10,383 bases of DNA. Origin: a virus. Under the pieces are notes generated by a model. It was not told the DNA's origin and made no database searches. It worked only from the letters and a program-made list of their open reading frames with translations. Made by a program: the position numbers and the translations under genes. Within the stretch, counting starts at the first letter, position 1. Every line of letters begins with the position of its first letter. Below are positions 1,078-10,383 of this stretch, in pieces. The stretch lies in UHGV virus genome UHGV-0129844, one strand, 5' to 3'.

Positions 1078-1153
1078 TGGTGCTGGTTAACGGACTTGAA
1101 CCGCTACCCATTCGCTTACAAGACGACTGCTCTACCATTAGAGCTAAACCAGC
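1078..1153 (-). tRNA. tRNA-like gene, 76 nt, anticodon UGU (Thr-like), encoded CCA end
   Basis: Reverse complement: GCTGGTT TA GCTC TAATGGTA GAGC A GTCGT CTTGTAA GCGAA TGGGT AGCGG TTCAAGT CCGTT AACCAGC A CCA. Hand-folded: perfect 7-bp acceptor stem, 4-bp D stem with a GG-containing D loop, T arm with TTCAAGT loop, 7-nt anticodon loop cUUGUaa. The anticodon stem has one G.A mismatch and one G.U pair. The acceptor stem GCUGGUU resembles tRNA-Thr families. Confidence 0.6.
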
Positions 1154-1158
1154 ATGTT

Positions 1159-1233
1159 TGGCGGGACAGCGTGGACTCGAACCACGATAAGAAGGTTAAC
1201 AGCCTTCCGTAATGACCTTTATACGACTGACCC
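1159..1233 (-). tRNA. tRNA-like gene, 75 nt, anticodon GUU (Asn-like), encoded CCA end; possibly degenerate
   Basis: Reverse complement: GGGTCAG TC GTAT AAAGGTCA TTAC G GAAGG CTGTTAA CCTTC TTAT CGTGG TTCGAGT CCACG CTGTCCC G CCA. Perfect 5-bp anticodon and T stems, anticodon loop cUGUUaa and T loop GGTTCGAGTCC as in tRNA-Asn. The acceptor stem has one T.T mismatch (positions 4-69) and the D stem is weak, so it may be a pseudo-tRNA. Confidence 0.5.
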
Positions 1234-3748: not shown

Positions 3749-3927
3749 CTTGTATGCCTCGCACGTTCTCTAAGCCACCGGATATCCCACAGGTGAGCCG
3801 TGTAGTTGAAGGTTTTTACGTCAGATTCTTTTGGGATTGGCTTGCGTTTATTTCTGGAGCGCTTCGTTGGAAGGTATTTGCAGTTTTCGCAGATGATGTC
3901 GGTGATACTTCGTCGCTGTCGCCTCAT
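3745..3927 (-). CDS. ninE: NinE, 60 aa
   Basis: From the internal Met of the 90-aa track ORF: [60 protein letters not shown], matching lambda NinE. The ATG (3927..3925) overlaps the methyltransferase stop as ATGA. Confidence 0.85.
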
Positions 3928-4451
3928 GCCGCCCTCCTGACGCCCTGCCCGATCGCCATCAATGCCGCTTTGGATACGGTAGTAAACATCCGTCGAGGAC
4001 TGATGAACGGTCGCCAAATCAGCAGCATGGAGCCTTTGCTGTTTCCCTTCTTCTCCAGCCCTGTCGATGGTTCGATAAAATTAATCCGTCCATCAGTGAT
4101 AATGCGAACTTCGTCGACACTCTCCAGAGCCTTGCTGAACCATCCGACTGACATATCCTCTGGCACAAGCATCACTACCGCCTGTCGCTGTTGTATGCAC
4201 TGCTCAGCGGCTTTTTCCACCCACGGTCTGATATTGCTGTAAGGTGGGTTATTCCAGATTGCACCGTAGCTTATCCACTCAGAATTGAGCGCGTCGTCGG
4301 CCTCAGTTAGCCAGTGAGCGCACAGAGCATTTTTGTCGCTCGCTGCTGAATCCAGCCAGAATCCAAACTCAATATCCAGCGCATCAAAAAGCCAAAGCGG
4401 CGTTTGCCAGCAGTCCTTGTCGTGTGCTGGCGTATTTGATTTGATAGTCAT
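3924..4451 (-). CDS. Phage Dam-like DNA N6-adenine methyltransferase, about 175 aa
   Basis: The protein contains [12 protein letters not shown] and the NPPY motif (methyltransferase motif IV), typical of the small phage N6-adenine methyltransferase family. The preferred start ATG at 4451 overlaps the ninB stop (ATGA); an alternative upstream ATG exists at 4478. Confidence 0.78.
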
Positions 4452-4894
4452 GCAGCCTTCCCTTTTCGTTGTGACCATTCATACTCTCGCCGGGAGTCAT
4501 CACTCCACCGCACGTTGCGCTCTGAGCCGAACCAGAACATGATTTCGATAAGCTCAGTCATGCTGGACTTTCGCATTTTGCTGGTACGCACGCCAAGCAT
4601 AACAACGCCACCGTCGATACCAGGCACACTTCGTTGCTCCAGTTTTTTGGTCTTAAGCCACAGGGCAGTGAACAGATCTTTCCAGTCTTCCGGCGCCAGC
4701 CGTTGACCATGCCATAGCACCTGACGCGAAACATCGTTCAGCATCGGCCACATACGGTCATTCTGCGCTTTGCTGCGTTTGGGTTCTCTAACGTGGACTT
4801 CGTGGGGTGACTTGTCGTCGATGGGTAGTGAGAGAATGGCGTCTATGGCGTTATTTCTGATTGCTTCGTTACGAAGCATGTATATTTGCTTCAT
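4448..4894 (-). CDS. ninB: NinB family recombination protein, 148 aa
   Basis: MKQIYMLRNEAIRNNAIDAILSLP...QNDRMWPMLNDVSRQVLWHGQRL...[20 protein letters not shown] resembles lambda NinB (orf146) in conserved blocks (QNR-W, DVSRQV-WHG, WSD-EW) and sits in the expected nin position. Confidence 0.82.
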   Translation of the reverse strand: MKQIYMLRNEAIRNNAIDAILSLPIDDKSPHEVHVREPKRSKAQNDRMWPMLNDVSRQVLWHGQRLAPEDWKDLFTALWLKTKKLEQRSVPGIDGGVVMLGVRTSKMRKSSMTELIEIMFWFGSERNVRWSDDSRREYEWSQRKGKAA

Positions 4895-5239: not shown

Positions 5240-5446
5240 TCAACTAACAAAACGCCACGCCATTTTTGCTACGACAACAGGCATAACACCGATAATCACC
5301 CAGACAAATGCAGCGCCAAACAACGTATACCATGGGTCTTTACCGTCATTCACAAGACGAATGTAGCTATGCAGAACAATAAAAAACGTCAGAAGAATCC
5401 ATCCAACGCCAACGCATTTGAATGCGACGAGCATAAACTCAGCCAC
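5240..5446 (-). CDS. Hypothetical small membrane protein, 68 aa (or 64 aa from the internal ATG), two predicted transmembrane helices
   Basis: Two hydrophobic stretches (WILLTFFIVLHSYI and LFGAAFVWVIIGVMPVVVA). GGAG lies 8 nt upstream of the GTG start at 5446; an ATG follows 4 codons later. It sits directly downstream of the tR2-like terminator. Confidence 0.45.
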   Translation of the reverse strand: MAEFMLVAFKCVGVGWILLTFFIVLHSYIRLVNDGKDPWYTLFGAAFVWVIIGVMPVVVAKMAWRFVS

Positions 5447-5521: not shown

Positions 5522-6958
5522 TCAGAATCCTCCTTTCTTCTTGGACTGCGGTTCCTCGCGTTCACGGCGGCGCATTTCAGCAGACTGTTGGTCTGTGTCA
5601 TAAATAGCGCCATTTGCCTGAATGCAATACACCGTGCCGGTATTGCCATGACGATTGAGGCGAAGGATTAGTTCGGTTTCACCAGGTGGAACACTGTCAT
5701 CAAAAGCACCTTCACGATGGATCCCCACCCAATAATCGCAATCCTGTTCAATCTGCCCTGTATCTCGTGAGTCACTTGGCAATGGGCGTTTATTGGTTCG
5801 GCTTTCCAGTGCGCGGTTAAGCTGTGTCAGAAGCACAACAACGCAATCAAGCTCTTTGGCAAGGTTCTTCAGTCCTTTGGTGATCATGCCGTAAGCAAGG
5901 TCGTTGCGATCGGCCTTTTCAGCGGTCATTAGTGTCAGGTAATCGACCAGAATCATGCCAACACATCCTTTTTCTCGCTTGATTCGACGGCTTTCGCTGA
6001 CGATTTGAGACAGAGATAATCCCGGCGTGTCGTCGATGTAAAGCAGGTCGATTTCACTCAAGCGATTGGCTGTTTCGATCGCCCTGTTGAAGTCACCATC
6101 GTAATCACCCTGATAGCCGTCATCAGCGTCATTTGTCGCCGGAAGGTAAAAAATATTCGGGTTAACACCTGACTTCTGTCCTACCAGTTTTTCCAGTATC
6201 TGGTCACCGGGCATTTCAAGGCTGAACATCAGAGCGGGCTTTTTCTCATGCACTGCGCAGTTGATTGCCATCTGGCTGTATAGCGTCGTTTTCCCCATCT
6301 TAGGGCGAGCGCCAATGACAAACAGAGAGCCTTTCACCAGGCCTTTCGGTGACAGCATCCTGTCCAGCGATGGGATCCCTGTGCTCATTCCTCGTTGTTC
6401 GCCTGACGGGTCAAATCGCTTCTCAAGGTCGCTAACCCAGTCTTCCATGACCTCACCAAATGAGCGAAGGCCGCGACGCGATCCGGTTTTTGCATGGTCT
6501 GTCAGTTGCGTGAAAATCGACTGAATAGCTTCGTACTTCTGCGTTGCAGTCATTCCGTTGCGGGAATAGAGCAATTCCGTCGCTTCAGTCATGCGGTTGA
6601 TGGCGTAGCGTTCCATTGCGGTTTCACGAACCTGCATTGCATAGGCAACGATGTTTGCTGCGCTTGGCGTGTTCTTTGCGATCTCAGCGATATAAGCAAA
6701 ACCGCCAACAGACACCGTTAACGATTTACGCTCCAGTTCATCGAAAAGCGTCAGGCCATCTACTGGCTTTTGCTCACGGTGCATTCTGGTTATTTCTTCG
6801 AAAATGATTTTGTGTGGTCGGCTGTAAAATGAATCAGGCTTCAGCATCGCCAGGACTTTCTGGACGCGCTCACTGCTGTCATCATCCAGAAGCAATCCAC
6901 CAATCACCGCCTGCTCTGCCTCGATGCTATGGGGCGGCGCATAAAAATTATCGGTCAT
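5522..6958 (-). CDS. DnaB-family replicative DNA helicase, about 478 aa
   Basis: Walker A motif GARPKMGKTTL, a DnaB-type N-terminal domain (SIEAEQAVIGGLLLD) and C-terminal RecA-like domain, similar in layout to P22 gp12-type phage helicases. The ATG at 6958 (MTDNFYAPP...) is preferred over the GTG at 6973 that the ORF track uses. Confidence 0.9.
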   Translation of the reverse strand: MTDNFYAPPHSIEAEQAVIGGLLLDDDSSERVQKVLAMLKPDSFYSRPHKIIFEEITRMHREQKPVDGLTLFDELERKSLTVSVGGFAYIAEIAKNTPSAANIVAYAMQVRETAMERYAINRMTEATELLYSRNGMTATQKYEAIQSIFTQLTDHAKTGSRRGLRSFGEVMEDWVSDLEKRFDPSGEQRGMSTGIPSLDRMLSPKGLVKGSLFVIGARPKMGKTTLYSQMAINCAVHEKKPALMFSLEMPGDQILEKLVGQKSGVNPNIFYLPATNDADDGYQGDYDGDFNRAIETANRLSEIDLLYIDDTPGLSLSQIVSESRRIKREKGCVGMILVDYLTLMTAEKADRNDLAYGMITKGLKNLAKELDCVVVLLTQLNRALESRTNKRPLPSDSRDTGQIEQDCDYWVGIHREGAFDDSVPPGETELILRLNRHGNTGTVYCIQANGAIYDTDQQSAEMRRREREEPQSKKKGGF

Positions 6959-7847
6959 CGTGTTCACCCTCACGAACTTTCAGGTAGGTATTATCGTTAA
7001 GCAGGAAATCAAATCCCTTTTTGTGCCAGACGGTTCCGCGTTGATGGTTTGGACGCTCTTCGAACATCCATCGGCAATTTTCGCCTACGTAGCTCAAATA
7101 ATTTCTCCAGTCCTGCATCGTGAACCCATGCCCGTCAAGCTGGCGGGTTATCACTCCGGCTTTGCGCCAGAACGTTCGGATCTGGTTTTTACGCTTGTCA
7201 TTCAGTGCGCGGATTTTTGGCGCTTCAGGAAGGATTTCGTGGTAAGCATCGACAACATCCTGACAGCTAACGGAAGGTTTTTTCTTGTCAGACTTTTTGT
7301 CTGCTGTGGCACTCTCTAATACGTCAGTATTAGAGATAATATTATTATATTCTTTATCTGTGGTAATTTGCTGGTAATCTGCTGGTACAGTATTGCTTAC
7401 AGGCATTGGTATTGCTGGCTTTGAGGTGGTAATTTGCTGGTAATCTGCTGGTACAAAATTTGACTGATAATCGTCATATTTCTCTACCGAGAAAACTGAG
7501 AATTTACCGTGTGAAACCCAGTCAATCATGCCGAGTTTTTTGAACTTTCTAAGCAGGTACTGAACGCGATCTGGTTTGAGTCCTGTTTCAAACGCCAGAG
7601 AGTTTCTACCGCCAAGTAGCTTCCCTCTGCCTACCAGAATTTCTCCTGCGTCAGTCATTACATACTCAGGCGTATGCTTTGCTTTGAGGATTAAGTGAAC
7701 CCACAGATGCGCTGCTTCTGCGTCCTTGTAAAACGGCACATCCATAATTTTACGGTGCAGCAAGGCATACCCCTTACCGCTGCTTTGATGCGGTTGTTGT
7801 AGCCTTCTGGCCTCTCTGGCTTCGGCTAGATTAGATATGTTACTCAT
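6948..7847 (-). CDS. Replication initiator protein (functional analogue of lambda O / P22 gp18; not lambda O by sequence), 299 aa
   Basis: It sits where O would be, directly after cII/oop and before the helicase. The ori-type iteron repeats lie inside its coding sequence and encode the repeated peptide [11 protein letters not shown] strong AAGGAG lies 7 nt upstream of the ATG. Confidence 0.78.
7361..7455. repeat. Origin-type iterons: two identical 29-bp direct repeats with nested GCTGGTAAT/GCTGGTACA sub-repeats, flanked by an AT-rich tract
   Basis: TGGTAATTTGCTGGTAATCTGCTGGTACA occurs at 7361-7389 and again at 7427-7455. The degenerate copy GGTATTGCTGG lies between them, and the AT-rich stretch GATAATATTATTATATTCTTTATCT lies at about 7335-7359. 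Confidence 0.7.
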
Positions 7848-8655: not shown

Positions 8656-8725
8656 ATTATCACCGCTAGAGGTAAAATAGTCAACACGCACGGTGTTAGA
8701 TATTTATCCCTTGCGGTGATAGATT
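8656..8725. promoter_or_regulatory. Right operator OR1-OR2-OR3 with divergent promoters PR (towards cro) and PRM (towards cI)
   Basis: OR1 at 8658-8674 (TATCACCGCTAGAGGTA), OR2 at 8682-8698 (CAACACGCACGGTGTTA), OR3 at 8705-8721 (TATCCCTTGCGGTGATA). PR on the minus strand: -35 TTGACT (8679-8684) and -10 GATAAT (8656-8661). PRM on the plus strand: -35 TAGATA (8696-8701) and -10 TAGATT (8720-8725), leaderless into the cI ATG. Confidence 0.9.
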
Positions 8726-8728
8726 TAA

Positions 8729-9445
<717 letters not shown>

Positions 9446-9476
9446 TTCAACGCAGCAAAAAAGGGTAATTCAATTA

Positions 9477-10349
9477 ATGGAACATGATGATTTACAGCAA
9501 TTACCATCCCCATTCGCAAAATGGAAGGGGAAGATCGACTTAGGTGGTGAAAGTATTGATTGCTATGTGCTTGACACTGGACATCGTGTTATAGCTTTGC
9601 GAGCAACTGTAAAAGCAATTGCCAATGCGGAGTCAGGAGACCTGGCTAAATTTATTGGCGTTAGCTCACTTAATGGCTTTATAGACAAAGACTTAGTCCT
9701 GGCCGAACTCATAGAGTTTTCCATACCAGGAACCCAATTTAAGAGCCAAGGACTTAAGACTGAGCAATTTGAATTGATTTGTCGCGGCTATGTACAGGCG
9801 CTATACAAAGGCGCGCCATTGACAGATAGACAGCGAGAAATAGCAATTAAATGTGCTGTATTAACAGCAGGTTTAACCAGGACTGGGTTAGATGCTCTAA
9901 TTGATGAGGCTACTGGGTATCAGTATGAGCGCGCAGAGGATGCTCTCCAAGTAAAACTCAGGGCGTTCATCGCTGAGGAACTAAGAGCATGGGAAAAAAC
10001 ATTTCCTGATGAGTTATGGGAAGAATTTGGTAGATTGACAGGATGGAGTACCCCATTGCAATCAAGGCCCAAATGGTGGGGGAAATTAGTTATAGAGTTA
10101 ATTTATGACACTCTTGACGAAGATGTGGCTAAATATCTTAAAGAAAACAAGCCTGCGGCAGGAGTTCACTGGCATAGACAGTTAACCGAGAACCTAGGTG
10201 TAAGGCAGCTTGTATCAAGGTGCTGGGAGGTTATTGGGGTCGCAAAAACATGCGACACCATGCATGAGCTAAGAAGTCGAGTTGCTCAACACTATGGAAA
10301 GAAACCTGTTCAAATGACAATGTATTTACCGGAAAAAGAAATTAAATAA
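9477..10349 (+). CDS. Hypothetical soluble protein, about 290 aa, in the position lambda uses for rexA-rexB
   Basis: The ORF is in frame from 9381, but the first ATG after the cI stop is at 9477 (MEHDDLQQLPSPFAKWKGKIDLGG...) with an AAAAGGG motif upstream. It has no long hydrophobic segments and no resemblance to RexA or RexB. It ends KEIK* directly before an intrinsic terminator. Confidence 0.7.
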   Translation: MEHDDLQQLPSPFAKWKGKIDLGGESIDCYVLDTGHRVIALRATVKAIANAESGDLAKFIGVSSLNGFIDKDLVLAELIEFSIPGTQFKSQGLKTEQFELICRGYVQALYKGAPLTDRQREIAIKCAVLTAGLTRTGLDALIDEATGYQYERAEDALQVKLRAFIAEELRAWEKTFPDELWEEFGRLTGWSTPLQSRPKWWGKLVIELIYDTLDEDVAKYLKENKPAAGVHWHRQLTENLGVRQLVSRCWEVIGVAKTCDTMHELRSRVAQHYGKKPVQMTMYLPEKEIK

Positions 10350-10356
10350 TATACAA

Positions 10357-10382
10357 CCCGGCCTCAGCGCCGGGTTTTCTTT
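10357..10382 (+). terminator. Intrinsic terminator closing the cI-cargo operon
   Basis: CCCGGC (10357-10362), loop CTCAGC, GCCGGG (10369-10374), giving a perfect 6-bp GC stem followed by TTTTCTTT. Confidence 0.75.
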
Positions 10383-10383
10383 G

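What the first reader, a model, noticed from the sequence alone, without database searches (positions are those of the whole stretch)
9446..10383. Unrecognised 290-aa gene with its own terminator replaces rexAB immediately downstream of cI
In lambda the genes co-transcribed with cI from PRM/PRE are the rexA-rexB exclusion system. Here the cI gene is lambda-type, but the downstream slot holds a single soluble protein (start about 9477, stop 10349) with no resemblance to RexA, RexB or any family I can name. A strong intrinsic terminator follows at 10357-10382. Genes in this slot are expressed in the lysogen and are typically superinfection-exclusion, abortive-infection or lysogenic-conversion functions. 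This makes it the best candidate in the window for an undescribed prophage defence or exclusion protein.
Basis: partly seen in the sequence, partly recalled or inferred. Interest (0 to 1): 0.7.

Follow-up and report, generated by a model that had tools for sequence, protein, structure and literature searches.

The report
P63C gene in lambda's rexAB slot
The gene after the phage repressor is real and sits where lambda keeps its rexAB exclusion genes, but it belongs to a known, functionally uncharacterised family (P63C) that is very strongly conserved across bacteria and is mostly carried inside insertion sequences, so an anti-phage role is plausible but unproven.

Summary
The sequence features are real. 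A 290-aa ORF (ATG 9477, stop 10347-10349) fills the space between the cI stop (9445) and a strong hairpin terminator (10355-10376 plus T-tract).

The protein is not family-less: it has a Pfam P63C domain (E=2e-22), belongs to PHROG 2384, and RefSeq calls it "P63C domain-containing protein". The terminator is not private: it is lambda's t_imm, base-for-base, and it closes the same slot behind rexB, bstA, HK97 gp48, DUF1828, DUF2335 and HicA cargo in 696 E. coli genomes.

The protein has a confidently modelled Bro-N/Ski-Dachshund-like N-terminal domain, probably DNA-binding, and a helical P63C C-terminal domain of unknown activity. It is not a member of RexAB, BstA or any PADLOC family.

Two results were unexpected. 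The C-domain is 91-96% identical across bacterial classes although synonymous sites are saturated. And in 45 of 80 diverse genomes the gene lies beside an IS1595/IS1-type transposase; at least nine of those units have terminal inverted repeats and 8-bp target duplications.

The same cassette follows four different repressor types in prophages and in isolated Salmonella phages. A BstA-like exclusion role is the leading hypothesis, but it is untested.

The parts
8720..8725 (+). pRM -10 hexamer (TAGATT), the presumed lysogenic promoter of the cI-P63C transcript
   Evidence: Position transferred from the annotated CL707 immunity region, which is 98.8% identical over this stretch. The sequence was read. 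Promoter activity is inferred from lambda knowledge and was not measured.
8732..9445 (+). cI repressor gene, lambda immunity type (HTH_3 + Peptidase_S24)
   Evidence: Pfam HTH_3 E=2.6e-11 and Peptidase_S24 E=6.8e-29. 97.9% nucleotide identity to lambda cI.
9446..9476 (+). Left junction of the cargo cassette and translation-initiation region (SD AAGGG at 9461-9465)
   Evidence: Similarity to lambda, HK97 and SfI stops at window 9441-9447, within a few bases of the cI stop codon. SD and spacing were read. The equivalent AAGGA-N7-ATG-GAA is present in the Klebsiella and Salmonella SI8 copies.
9477..10349 (+). P63C-family gene, 290 aa (WP_000342823-type protein; RefSeq calls a TTG start at 9438)
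   Evidence: ORF. Pfam P63C and PHROG 2384. 2,702 homologs. 100% identical in 5 E. coli chromosomes (>=99.6% in 11) and, at protein level, in two IncF plasmid-borne prophages.
9507..9881 (+). N-terminal domain (residues 11-135): Bro-N / Ski-Dachshund-like alpha/beta fold, the variable module, probably DNA-binding
9882..10301 (+). C-terminal conserved module (residues 136-275), all-helical, containing Pfam P63C (residues 161-245 = nt 9957-10211); presumed effector
   Evidence: Pfam. 91-96% amino-acid identity to Klebsiella, Pseudomonas and Aureimonas copies with saturated dS. Helical but low-confidence model.
9897..9932 (+). Signature motif L-I-D-E-A-T-G-Y-Q-Y-E-R (residues 141-152), the most conserved block of the family
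   Evidence: D143, E144, T146, G147 and R152 are conserved in at least 90% of 65 sequences down to 27% identity and invariant in the close set. The degenerate pattern found relatives in at least 595 species genomes.
10355..10383 (+). t_imm, the shared intrinsic terminator of the immunity transcript and the right boundary of the cargo slot (the window ends inside the T-tract)
   Evidence: Terminator scan. Identical to lambda's terminator after rexB and shared behind other cargo. Annotated as Timm in CL707. 752 places in E. coli genomes.

Best explanation
SHOWN. This is a genuine, strongly constrained gene of the P63C family. It is inserted as a single-gene cassette (window ~9447-10353) exactly between the cI stop codon and lambda's t_imm terminator, replacing rexAB. 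The protein has two modules. The N-terminal module is fast-evolving and has a Bro-N/KilA-N/Ski-Dachshund-type fold of the kind that binds DNA. The C-terminal P63C module is nearly invariant and helical. The family is carried by mobile elements: prophages, where it follows at least four repressor types, and above all IS1595/IS1-superfamily insertion sequences, where it is the second gene inside the terminal repeats.

INFERRED. In this prophage the gene is co-transcribed with cI from pRM/pRE and so is made in the lysogen. The most likely function is an autonomous, DNA-directed exclusion or abortive-infection factor working like BstA. The N-domain would recognise invading or replicating foreign DNA. 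The conserved P63C domain would then block a universally conserved step, either DNA replication or transcription on that DNA. This would protect the lysogen (or the host of the IS) from competing phages. The biochemical activity of P63C is unknown.
For: Slot. Behind 98-99% identical cI genes, the slot holds rexAB in lambda, a BstA homolog in CL707 (42% identical to BTP1 BstA, E=5e-84), gp49/48 in HK97, and the P63C gene here. All are closed by the same t_imm. Owen et al. 2021 (PMC8585504) show that BstA, in this same position, is an abortive-infection protein that blocks phage DNA replication, and they call the cI-N interval a mosaic hotspot.

Recurrence of the repressor -> P63C arrangement. 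It is seen in Klebsiella prophages, a Pseudomonas chlororaphis prophage, the isolated P22-like Salmonella phage SI8 (four sister isolates share the 90%-identical gene), SPN9CC, and a prophage on an IncF plasmid that carries the identical protein behind a different repressor.

Architecture parallel to BstA. The N-domain has a Bro-N/DHD fold. Relatives carry a true Pfam KilA-N domain in front of P63C or extra Cro/XRE/MerR HTH modules. The N-domains of the two families align in register, though weakly.

A variable N-domain on a constant C-domain (for example L028: N 35%, C 83%) is the pattern of a swappable recognition module on a fixed effector.

No partner gene is needed: the prophage copies lack the transposase yet remain under strong purifying selection.
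Against: No phenotype or expression data exist. There is no hit to any PADLOC model for this protein or for ten divergent relatives, while BstA scores 1.9e-124 as a control. Profile-profile similarity to BstA is not significant (probability 3%) and the C-domains are unrelated. C-domain conservation of 91-96% across classes with saturated dS is unusual for defence genes, which usually diversify. Most family members examined sit in insertion sequences, not prophages (45 of 80), and only 1 of 77 has an S24 repressor upstream. The 933W paralog is in the lytic nin region. No aba-like self-immunity element could be recognised; only chance-level short repeats lie around the start codon. The held literature contains no functional study of P63C.
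Confidence: 0.38

Rival explanations
1. The protein is an element-serving accessory factor, not a host-protecting one. It engages a universally conserved host DNA-transaction machine (replisome, repair or RNA polymerase) or the element's own DNA, and so promotes or regulates transposition of IS1595/IS1-type elements. Phages have co-opted it for their own replication, recombination or regulatory needs.
For: 45 of 80 diverse genomic copies lie within about 1.5 kb of an IS1595/IS1-superfamily transposase, in tandem, divergent and convergent layouts. Ten have terminal inverted repeats above all shuffles and nine have 8-bp target duplications enclosing both genes. The association spans P63C copies from 31% to 75% identity and two kinds of IS ends, so it is old and repeatedly re-formed. 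Very strong purifying selection on the C-domain across phyla fits an interaction with a universally conserved partner. The 933W paralog is in the early-lytic nin region among recombination and replication accessory genes. There is weak but significant co-divergence with the transposase (Mantel rho 0.23, p=0.0035).
Against: Prophage copies have no transposase or IS ends nearby, yet stay intact and constrained. In lambdoid and P22-like phages the gene sits in the lysogen-expressed slot, not among lytic genes. Co-variation of the N-domain with the transposase lineage is weak and no stronger than for the C-domain. P63C types have been exchanged between IS backbones, which argues against specific recognition of IS ends.
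Confidence: 0.3
2. The protein is a DNA-binding transcriptional regulator or antirepressor-type protein, as many Bro-N/KilA-N proteins are annotated. When expressed in the lysogen it would modulate host genes (lysogenic conversion) or interfere with the repressors of competing prophages.
For: The N-domain fold is Bro-N/KilA-N/Ski-DHD-like, and structural neighbours include 'repressor domain' and KilA proteins. There are recurrent N-terminal fusions to Cro, XRE, MerR and CI-type HTH domains. P63C was first described in the Iyer-Koonin-Aravind 2002 survey of viral transcription-regulator domains (own recollection; the paper was not retrievable).
Against: A sequence-specific regulator of host or phage promoters would not be expected to keep a 91-96% identical C-domain from Enterobacterales to Rhizobiales, or to be useful inside insertion sequences in Saccharibacteria, Cyanobacteria and Bacillota. 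The identical protein serves behind different repressors, so it is not matched to one immunity system.
Confidence: 0.15
3. The gene is a selfish passenger with no benefit to phage or host. It could be an orphan left when an IS inserted after cI and lost its transposase, or a free-standing homing-endonuclease-like gene that invades intergenic gaps between conserved phage genes.
For: The cassette is precisely bounded by conserved flanks (the cI stop and t_imm), as homing-type insertions are. Close relatives (72-75% identity) are IS-borne. The gene's GC content is 42.8% against 47.6% for the window. Invariant acidic and polar residues (D139, D143, E144, E151, H233) could form a metal site.
Against: No IS end motifs or transposase remnants were found in the window or in prophage loci L001-L016. 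dS is saturated between the prophage copies of E. coli, Klebsiella and Pseudomonas while the proteins stay 81-87% identical (C-domain 93-96%), which means long-term selection on transposase-less copies. The same slot is occupied under four immunity types. No nuclease fold was detected, and the C-domain is all-helical.
Confidence: 0.1

Closest known systems
BstA (Salmonella phage BTP1; Owen et al. 2021, PMC8585504)
   Same: Single gene of ~300 aa directly downstream of the prophage repressor and closed by a t_imm-type terminator. Two-domain protein with an N-terminal KilA-N-like (here Bro-N-like) module. Found in prophages of alpha-, beta- and gamma-proteobacteria. A BstA homolog occupies the identical slot behind a 98.8%-identical cI in phage CL707.
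   Different: No sequence membership: PADLOC BstA gives no hit against 1.9e-124 for the control, and BLASTP is null. Profile-profile probability is 3% and limited to the N-domains; the C-terminal domains are unrelated (P63C against BstA-C PF26567). No aba-like element was recognised. The family is far more conserved and mostly IS-borne.
RexAB of phage lambda
   Same: Same genomic slot and presumed transcription unit: pRM/pRE -> cI -> cargo -> t_imm.
   Different: RexAB is a two-gene system; that RexB is a membrane protein is established knowledge, not tested here. Here there is one soluble protein with no similarity to either: homology to lambda stops at the cI stop and resumes at t_imm.
Pfam P63C (PF10546; named after Myxococcus phage Mx8 p63) / PHROG 2384
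   Same: This is the family the protein belongs to: 79.8 bits against a cut-off of 26.1, and full-length match to PHROG 2384 at E=1e-86. Relatives combine P63C with KilA-N, as the domain's original description implies.
   Different: The Pfam model covers only residues 161-245. The conserved unit is larger (residues 136-275) and includes the LIDEATGYQ motif upstream of the Pfam domain. No function is recorded for the family.
Insertion sequences of the IS1595/IS1 superfamily that carry a second (passenger) gene
   Same: Relatives 31-75% identical are the second gene of 2.0-2.4-kb elements with a Zn-ribbon + DDE transposase, terminal inverted repeats and 8-bp target duplications.
   Different: The window copy has no transposase, no IS ends and no duplication. 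It is a bare gene in a phage slot. Whether ISfinder already lists this second gene (ISNwi1-type or ISMhu11-type elements, from memory) could not be checked, because the Siguier/Chandler papers are not held.
Bro-N / KilA-N phage proteins annotated as antirepressors or regulators (e.g. Roi, Ant/KilAC proteins)
   Same: The N-terminal fold class is shared. One such gene (KilAC antirepressor) is present elsewhere in the same type of prophage.
   Different: No Pfam Bro-N, KilA-N or KilAC/ANT match for this protein. The C-terminal module is different.

Membership tests
Pfam P63C (PF10546) | Match to the family HMM above the curated gathering score | tested here: met
   79.8 bits against a cut-off of 26.1, E=2.3e-22, residues 161-245 covering model positions 2-93 of 93. 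All 65 divergent relatives also match.
Pfam P63C (PF10546) | C-terminal position behind a viral-type DNA-binding module (KilA-N/Bro-N class) | tested here: met
BstA abortive-infection family | Sequence match to the BstA profile | tested here: not met
   PADLOC BstA: no hit for the window protein, against 1.9e-124 for BTP1 BstA. BLASTP best E=1.6.
BstA abortive-infection family | BstA-type C-terminal domain (PF26567) | tested here: not met
   hhalign of 65 P63C-family against 40 BstA-family sequences aligns only residues 27-152 with BstA 28-153. There is no alignment of the C-terminal halves.
BstA abortive-infection family | [quoted passage not shown] | tested here: inconclusive
   Same broad fold class by structure search and an in-register profile alignment, but only 3% probability, E=0.014.
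BstA abortive-infection family | Encoded immediately downstream of the prophage repressor, ending at a Rho-independent terminator | tested here: met
   cI stop at 9445, ATG at 9477, t_imm at 10355. Same layout as bstA in CL707 and BTP1.
BstA abortive-infection family | Cognate self-immunity DNA element (aba) spanning the start codon, with terminal direct repeats | tested here: inconclusive
   Only short repeats of chance-like size around 9441-9535 (14-16 nt at 75-79%; 7-nt inverted repeats). aba elements are not conserved in sequence, so absence cannot be shown in silico.
BstA abortive-infection family | Blocks phage DNA replication and causes abortive infection | not testable with these tools
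   Requires plaque, growth-curve and phage-DNA replication assays.
RexAB exclusion system | Two genes, rexA and rexB, with sequence similarity to lambda's | tested here: not met
   A single ORF fills the slot. Nucleotide similarity to lambda ends at the cI stop and resumes at t_imm.
RexAB exclusion system | Membrane component (RexB) | tested here: not met
   No hydrophobic segment: maximum Kyte-Doolittle 19-residue mean is 1.13.
Catalogued anti-phage defence systems (PADLOC-DB v2.0.0) | Match to any defence-protein model | tested here: not met
   0 families at E<=1 for the window protein. For ten divergent relatives there are only two marginal, partial hits (E=0.006 and 0.016).
IS1595/IS1-superfamily insertion sequence with a second gene | Adjacent DDE transposase with Zn-ribbon | tested here: not met
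   No transposase-like segment in the window or in prophage loci L001-L016. It is present beside 45 of 80 relatives.
IS1595/IS1-superfamily insertion sequence with a second gene | Terminal inverted repeats and 8-bp target-site duplication enclosing the gene | tested here: not met
   One IR-end motif (GGSCYTATATA) was searched for and is absent from the window and loci L001-L016. The cassette is bounded by cI and t_imm instead. The feature is met for relatives in L017, L023, L028, L048, L067, L069, L070, L073 and L074.

The most novel reading that the evidence does not exclude
P63C proteins are an undescribed, pan-bacterial class of single-protein, DNA-directed immunity or exclusion effectors. 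They pair a swappable KilA-N/Bro-N recognition module with an invariant P63C effector, and are shared between prophage immunity operons and insertion sequences. On this reading an IS family would routinely carry a host-protective (or competitor-excluding) gene as its standard second gene, and lambdoid and P22-like phages would plug the same gene into the rexAB/bstA slot.
Probability: 0.25. Interest if true: 0.8.

Novelty: new variant of a known kind. Interest (0 to 1): 0.55.

Why it matters
The cI-to-N interval of lambdoid phages is where RexAB, the classic exclusion system, and BstA reside. A third, unrelated single-protein occupant with a BstA-like layout would widen the known range of prophage-encoded immunity.

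The family is also odd in its own right. It is a two-domain protein whose C-terminal half is almost frozen across bacterial classes and still 54-63% identical overall between phyla. It is carried both by temperate phages and, in most genomes sampled here, inside IS1595/IS1-type insertion sequences, and no function has ever been assigned to it. Working out what P63C does would explain a recurrent insertion-sequence gene and a recurrent prophage cargo gene together.

Convenient experimental systems exist. They include isolated Salmonella phages with a 90%-identical copy in the same slot, E. coli lysogens with the identical gene, and intact elements with target duplications for transposition assays.

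Tried and rejected
1. Sequence searches of the PDB with the protein and with a 51-sequence profile found nothing meaningful; the best hit was a phycobilisome linker at E=1.2.

2. NCBIfam gave no family.

4. The AFDB Foldseek library was unavailable.

5. Remote homology to BstA was tested with family profiles and rejected as unsupported: probability 3%.

6. A search for an aba-like repeat element around the start codon found only chance-level repeats.

7. 'Recent horizontal transfer explains the conservation' was rejected, because synonymous sites are saturated even between the E. coli and Klebsiella copies.

8. 'The N-domain recognises the ends of its own IS' is not supported. Co-variation with the transposase is weak and no stronger than for the C-domain.

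9. The idea of a conserved downstream partner gene was rejected. Neighbours other than transposases are heterogeneous.

10. The RefSeq TTG start at 9438 was rejected in favour of ATG 9477, which has a conserved ME start and Shine-Dalgarno sequence in other contexts.

11. Literature. 'P63C' plus 'phage' returns only three incidental papers. The Iyer 2002 and Siguier 2009/2015 papers are not held. The paper 'E. coli prophages encode an arsenal of defense systems' is cited by others but is not itself held.
Full report
**1. What is in the window**

The window is part of a lambdoid prophage. On the minus strand lie lysis genes (52-835), two tRNA genes, Q (1508-2131), a nin-type region, a DnaB-like helicase (5522-6973), an O-like replication gene (6948-7847), cII and cro. 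On the plus strand lies cI (8732-9445). The cI/OR region is 97.9% identical to lambda and 98.8% identical to phage CL707.

The finding's ORF is present. It is in frame from 9381, with an ATG at 9477 and a TAA at 10347-10349, giving 290 aa. RefSeq annotates a TTG start at 9438 that overlaps the end of cI. ATG 9477 is the better start:
- The conserved protein core begins at residue 11.
- The closest homologs from Enterobacter, Klebsiella and Salmonella phages all start M-E at the same point and are 290-295 aa.
- Those copies lie in unrelated upstream contexts and have an AAGGA Shine-Dalgarno 7 nt upstream. Here it is AAGGG at 9461-9465, 11 nt upstream.

The hairpin at 10355-10376 (8 bp, 6 G-C) followed by a T-tract was found by the terminator scan.

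**2.

(a) The protein is not family-less. It matches Pfam P63C (PF10546) at 79.8 bits against a cut-off of 26.1, over residues 161-245. It matches PHROG 2384 over its full length at E=1e-86. RefSeq names it 'P63C domain-containing protein' in 11 of 5,426 complete E. coli genomes. Neither library assigns a function.

(b) The terminator is not private to the gene. AACCCGGCCTCAGCGCCGGGTTTTCTTTG is identical to the sequence downstream of lambda rexB. The same element follows several unrelated cargo genes:
- bstA in CL707, where Degnan and Little annotated it as Timm, the terminator of pRM, pRE and pLit transcripts
- HK97 gp48
- DUF2335, DUF1828 and hypothetical genes in E. coli prophages
- BTP1 bstA and Salmonella phage SI8, in a slightly variant form

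In every case similarity breaks at the cargo gene's stop codon and resumes at the hairpin, then continues into the oL/pL region. On the left, similarity to lambda ends at window 9446, just after the cI stop. The cargo cassette is therefore about 9447-10353. t_imm occurs at 752 places in 696 E. coli genomes. In a spread sample of 60 of those records the annotated neighbours include rexB, DUF1828, DUF2335 and a HicA toxin. The P63C gene accounts for only 11 places.

**3. The slot**

Behind essentially the same cI, the slot holds rexA-rexB in lambda and gp49-gp48 in HK97. In CL707 it holds a single 301-aa gene that is a BstA homolog: 42% identity to BTP1 BstA, E=5e-84. Here it holds the P63C gene. 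Owen et al. (PMC8585504) showed that BstA, encoded downstream of the BTP1 repressor, is highly expressed in lysogens, causes abortive infection and blocks phage DNA replication. They note that the cI-N interval is a known mosaic hotspot.

Between cI and ATG 9477 there are 31 nt with no promoter-like or terminator-like site. One weak terminator-like hairpin lies inside the gene at 9631-9647. Co-transcription with cI from pRM/pRE is therefore a reasonable inference from lambda biology, but it was not measured.

**4. The protein**

It is soluble and mildly acidic, with a basic N-terminal half. AlphaFold2 with 51 homologs models residues ~11-135 confidently (pLDDT 77-92) as a beta-beta-beta-alpha...beta-beta-alpha domain followed by helices. 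The C-terminal half is helical but patchy. Modelling it alone did not help: pLDDT 66.

Structure searches on the full model converge for the N-domain:
- Foldseek against the PDB: the Dachshund-homology domain of SKI is the only probable hit (prob 0.96, E=0.028). A KilA-N/APSES-DNA complex ranks third but is not significant.
- Foldseek against viral models: the list is dominated by Bro-N, BRO, ALI-motif, KilA and 'repressor domain' proteins from phages, baculoviruses and entomopoxviruses. One example is a 99-aa Bro-N protein at prob 0.99, TM 0.58.

Each hit is modest, but the agreement is strong. I take the N-domain to be a Bro-N/KilA-N/DHD-class module and infer that it binds DNA. Three observations support this:
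- Relatives that match only the C-domain carry a true Pfam KilA-N domain in front of P63C (E=7e-23 and 1e-25).
- Roughly one in eight divergent members has an additional N-terminal Cro/YdaS, XRE, MerR or CI-type HTH.
- Others have a GG-x-ARA...KAA-x-ARW-type N-terminal extension.

The C-domain has no detectable relative of known structure or function. Its hallmark is the block G-L-D-A-L-I-D-E-A-T-G-Y-Q-Y-E-R (residues 137-152), followed by W-E-K-T-F-P-D-E and R-P-K-W-W-G.

**5. Relationship to known systems**

RexAB is excluded: there is one soluble gene and no similarity.

BstA is the closest analogue in position, size and layout, but the protein is not a member of that family:
- The PADLOC BstA model scores BTP1 BstA at 1.9e-124 and does not hit this protein.
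- BLASTP is null.
- A 65-sequence against 40-sequence profile comparison gives 3% probability. It aligns only the two N-domains, in register (27-152 against 28-153). The C-domains do not align at all.

No PADLOC model matches this protein at E<=1, and ten divergent relatives give only two marginal partial hits. In the held literature P63C appears with 'phage' in three papers only. None is functional. One (PMC6536676) remarks that a P63C protein is the only link between a Paracoccus phage and gammaproteobacterial phages.

**6. Unusual conservation**

The 120 best database hits are all at least 73% identical. They come from Enterobacterales, Pseudomonas, Delftia, Burkholderiaceae, Rhodanobacter, Aureimonas, Xanthobacteraceae, Caulobacterales and Sulfitobacter. 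A second tier at 54-63% includes Nonomuraea and Micromonospora. A scan of one genome per species found relatives in at least 595 genomes. These include Acidobacteriota (69%), Bacillota (61-64%), Cyanobacteria (55%), Bacteroidota, Planctomycetota, Chloroflexota and Saccharibacteria. An exhaustive profile search found 2,302 clusters at 50% identity.

This is not recent transfer. In codon alignments with the Klebsiella, Pseudomonas and Aureimonas copies, synonymous sites are saturated (pS 0.83-0.86), and nucleotide identity is only 70-74%. Yet residues 136-275 remain 96, 93 and 91% identical (dN 0.04-0.09), while the N-domain is 81, 70 and 67% identical. In IS-borne copies the contrast can be extreme: L028 has N 35% and C 83%. 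The protein is thus a variable recognition module on a nearly frozen effector module.

**7. The insertion-sequence connection**

This was unexpected. I called the nearest neighbours of the gene in 80 diverse genomes and scanned them as a batch. The commonest upstream neighbour was an IS1595/ISXO2-like DDE transposase with its zinc ribbon (13-14 of 77). Only one locus had an S24 repressor.

An iterated transposase profile then found such a gene, intact or decayed, within about 1.5 kb of the P63C gene in 45 of 80 loci. The layouts are tandem, divergent, P63C-then-transposase and convergent. No such gene was found in the prophage loci that were searched, L001-L016 and the window.

A scored search for terminal repeats around each gene pair found 10 loci above every shuffled control. 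Seven have perfect 8-bp target-site duplications exactly at the repeat ends: L017 AAAAATAA, L028 TTGAATCG, L048 AGGCGTTG, L067 TGGGGGAG, L069 TTAGAGTT, L070 CTATTTTT and L074 AAGAATAG. L023 and L073 do as well after moving the ends by 1-2 nt.

The elements are 2.0-2.4 kb. Their ends are of two kinds: GG-nn-ATTAT/GGGCCTATATA (tandem layout) and GGTAGTG... (divergent layout, IS1-like). So the P63C gene is a genuine internal gene of insertion sequences that have transposed as units.

Transposase and P63C divergence correlate only weakly (Mantel rho 0.23 for the N-domain and 0.17 for the C-domain). P63C genes have therefore been exchanged among IS backbones, and the N-domain is not specially matched to the transposase lineage. 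From memory, ISfinder lists IS1595-family and IS1-family subgroups with passenger genes (Siguier, Gagnevin and Chandler 2009). I could not retrieve those papers to see whether this gene is mentioned.

**8. Phage copies**

tblastn finds the family in 62 phage records.
- Five isolated P22-like Salmonella phages (SI8, Si3, SF6, SI5, SF10) carry a 90%-identical 290-aa copy. In SI8, the one examined, the order is repressor -> P63C -> t_imm-like hairpin -> N-like gene, behind a repressor unrelated to lambda cI outside the S24 core.
- SPN9CC has a 409-aa relative after its cI.
- Klebsiella prophages and a Pseudomonas chlororaphis prophage also place it downstream of an S24 repressor.
- A prophage on an IncF plasmid has the identical protein behind yet another repressor.
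- Paracoccus phage Pkon1 (83.5%) has it next to Arc-type regulators.
- The 28%-identical paralog L0095 of Stx phage 933W lies in the nin region, between a DNA methylase and roi. That is a lytic context.

**9. Interpretation**

Shown:
- a real, strongly constrained gene
- membership of the P63C family
- a Bro-N-class N-domain
- the exact cassette boundaries
- a shared t_imm
- non-membership of RexAB, BstA and PADLOC families
- carriage on insertion sequences and prophages

Inferred: lysogenic expression, DNA binding, and function.

I rank a BstA-like, DNA-directed exclusion or abortive-infection role first (about 0.38). The reasons are the slot, its recurrence behind four repressor types, the KilA-N/Bro-N-plus-effector layout, the variable-N/constant-C pattern, and the gene's autonomy from any partner.

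Close behind (about 0.30) is an element-serving accessory role that acts on a universally conserved host DNA-transaction machine. That reading explains the IS linkage, the extreme conservation and the nin-region paralog better. It explains the lysogen-expressed slot and the constrained transposase-less copies less well.

A transcriptional-regulator or antirepressor role (about 0.15) and a purely selfish orphan or homing-type gene (about 0.10) are less likely.

**10. Verdict**

The interpretation as a defence candidate is reasonable but unproven, and the new IS context complicates it. In terms of known kinds, this is a new variant of the 'repressor-linked single-protein prophage cargo' kind exemplified by BstA, built on a known but functionally blank domain family. 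Interest is moderate to fairly high. The gene itself is already annotated, but the combination of the rexAB/bstA slot, near-frozen cross-phylum conservation and routine residence inside insertion sequences is unexplained, and it can be tested with existing phages and strains.

Noticed in passing
window 1078-1233 (- strand): Two tRNA genes, tRNA-Thr(TGT) and tRNA-Asn(GTT), lie between the Q antiterminator gene and the lysis genes. This is the late-operon position where Stx phages carry tRNAs and toxin genes (ARAGORN and Rfam agree).
   Followed up: partly
window 9438 vs 9477; L001 5993: RefSeq/PGAP annotates the gene from a TTG at 9438 that overlaps the end of cI (303 aa). Homolog starts and Shine-Dalgarno positions in other contexts support ATG 9477 (290 aa).
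   Followed up: yes
window 9631-9647 (+): A weak terminator-like hairpin (7 bp, 4 G-C, poor T-tract) lies about 150 nt inside the P63C gene. It is probably chance, but it could attenuate read-through from cI.
   Followed up: no
L017, L023, L028, L048, L067, L069, L070, L073, L074, L088 (coordinates): Intact 2.0-2.4-kb insertion sequences consisting of an IS1595/IS1-type transposase plus a P63C gene, with terminal inverted repeats. Nine have 8-bp target-site duplications; none was found for L088. They occur in Acidomonas, Rhodobacteraceae, Dechloromonas, Saccharibacteria, Peribacteria, Phycisphaerae, Chloroflexi and others.
   Followed up: yes
L028 4001-4861 vs window 9477-10349: Domain mosaicism. 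The Dechloromonas IS-borne copy is 83% identical to the E. coli protein in the C-domain but only 35% in the N-domain, which implies replacement of the N-terminal module.
   Followed up: partly
L100 (E. coli plasmid CP099047.1, 127298-128170): A lambdoid prophage embedded in a 165-kb conjugative IncFIB/FIC plasmid carries the 100%-identical P63C protein directly after a different repressor. The cassette moves between immunity types, and a prophage rides on a conjugative plasmid.
   Followed up: partly
L097 3333-4382 (phage 933W L0095, record 17532-18581): Shiga-toxin phage 933W and its relatives encode a 349-aa P63C paralog (28% identity) in the nin region, between a DNA methyltransferase and the Roi antirepressor. 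This is a lytic-cycle location.
   Followed up: partly
E. coli hits H81, H82: In some E. coli prophages a HicA-family toxin gene abuts t_imm, so toxin-antitoxin cargo also uses the cI-t_imm slot.
   Followed up: no
L006 4950-5888 vs L005/L007: In Klebsiella the P63C gene, together with at least 50 nt of identical upstream sequence, occurs both downstream of the repressor and in a different prophage accessory region, next to a superinfection-immunity (Imm_superinfect) gene. The cassette moves with its own translation-initiation region.
   Followed up: no
window 3924-4478 (-) and 5240-5446 (-): An ORF with an N6-adenine methyltransferase-like NPPY motif (IWNNPPYS), and a 68-aa ORF with two hydrophobic stretches (a possible small membrane protein) between the helicase gene and the nin region. 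Both were read from translations only.
   Followed up: no
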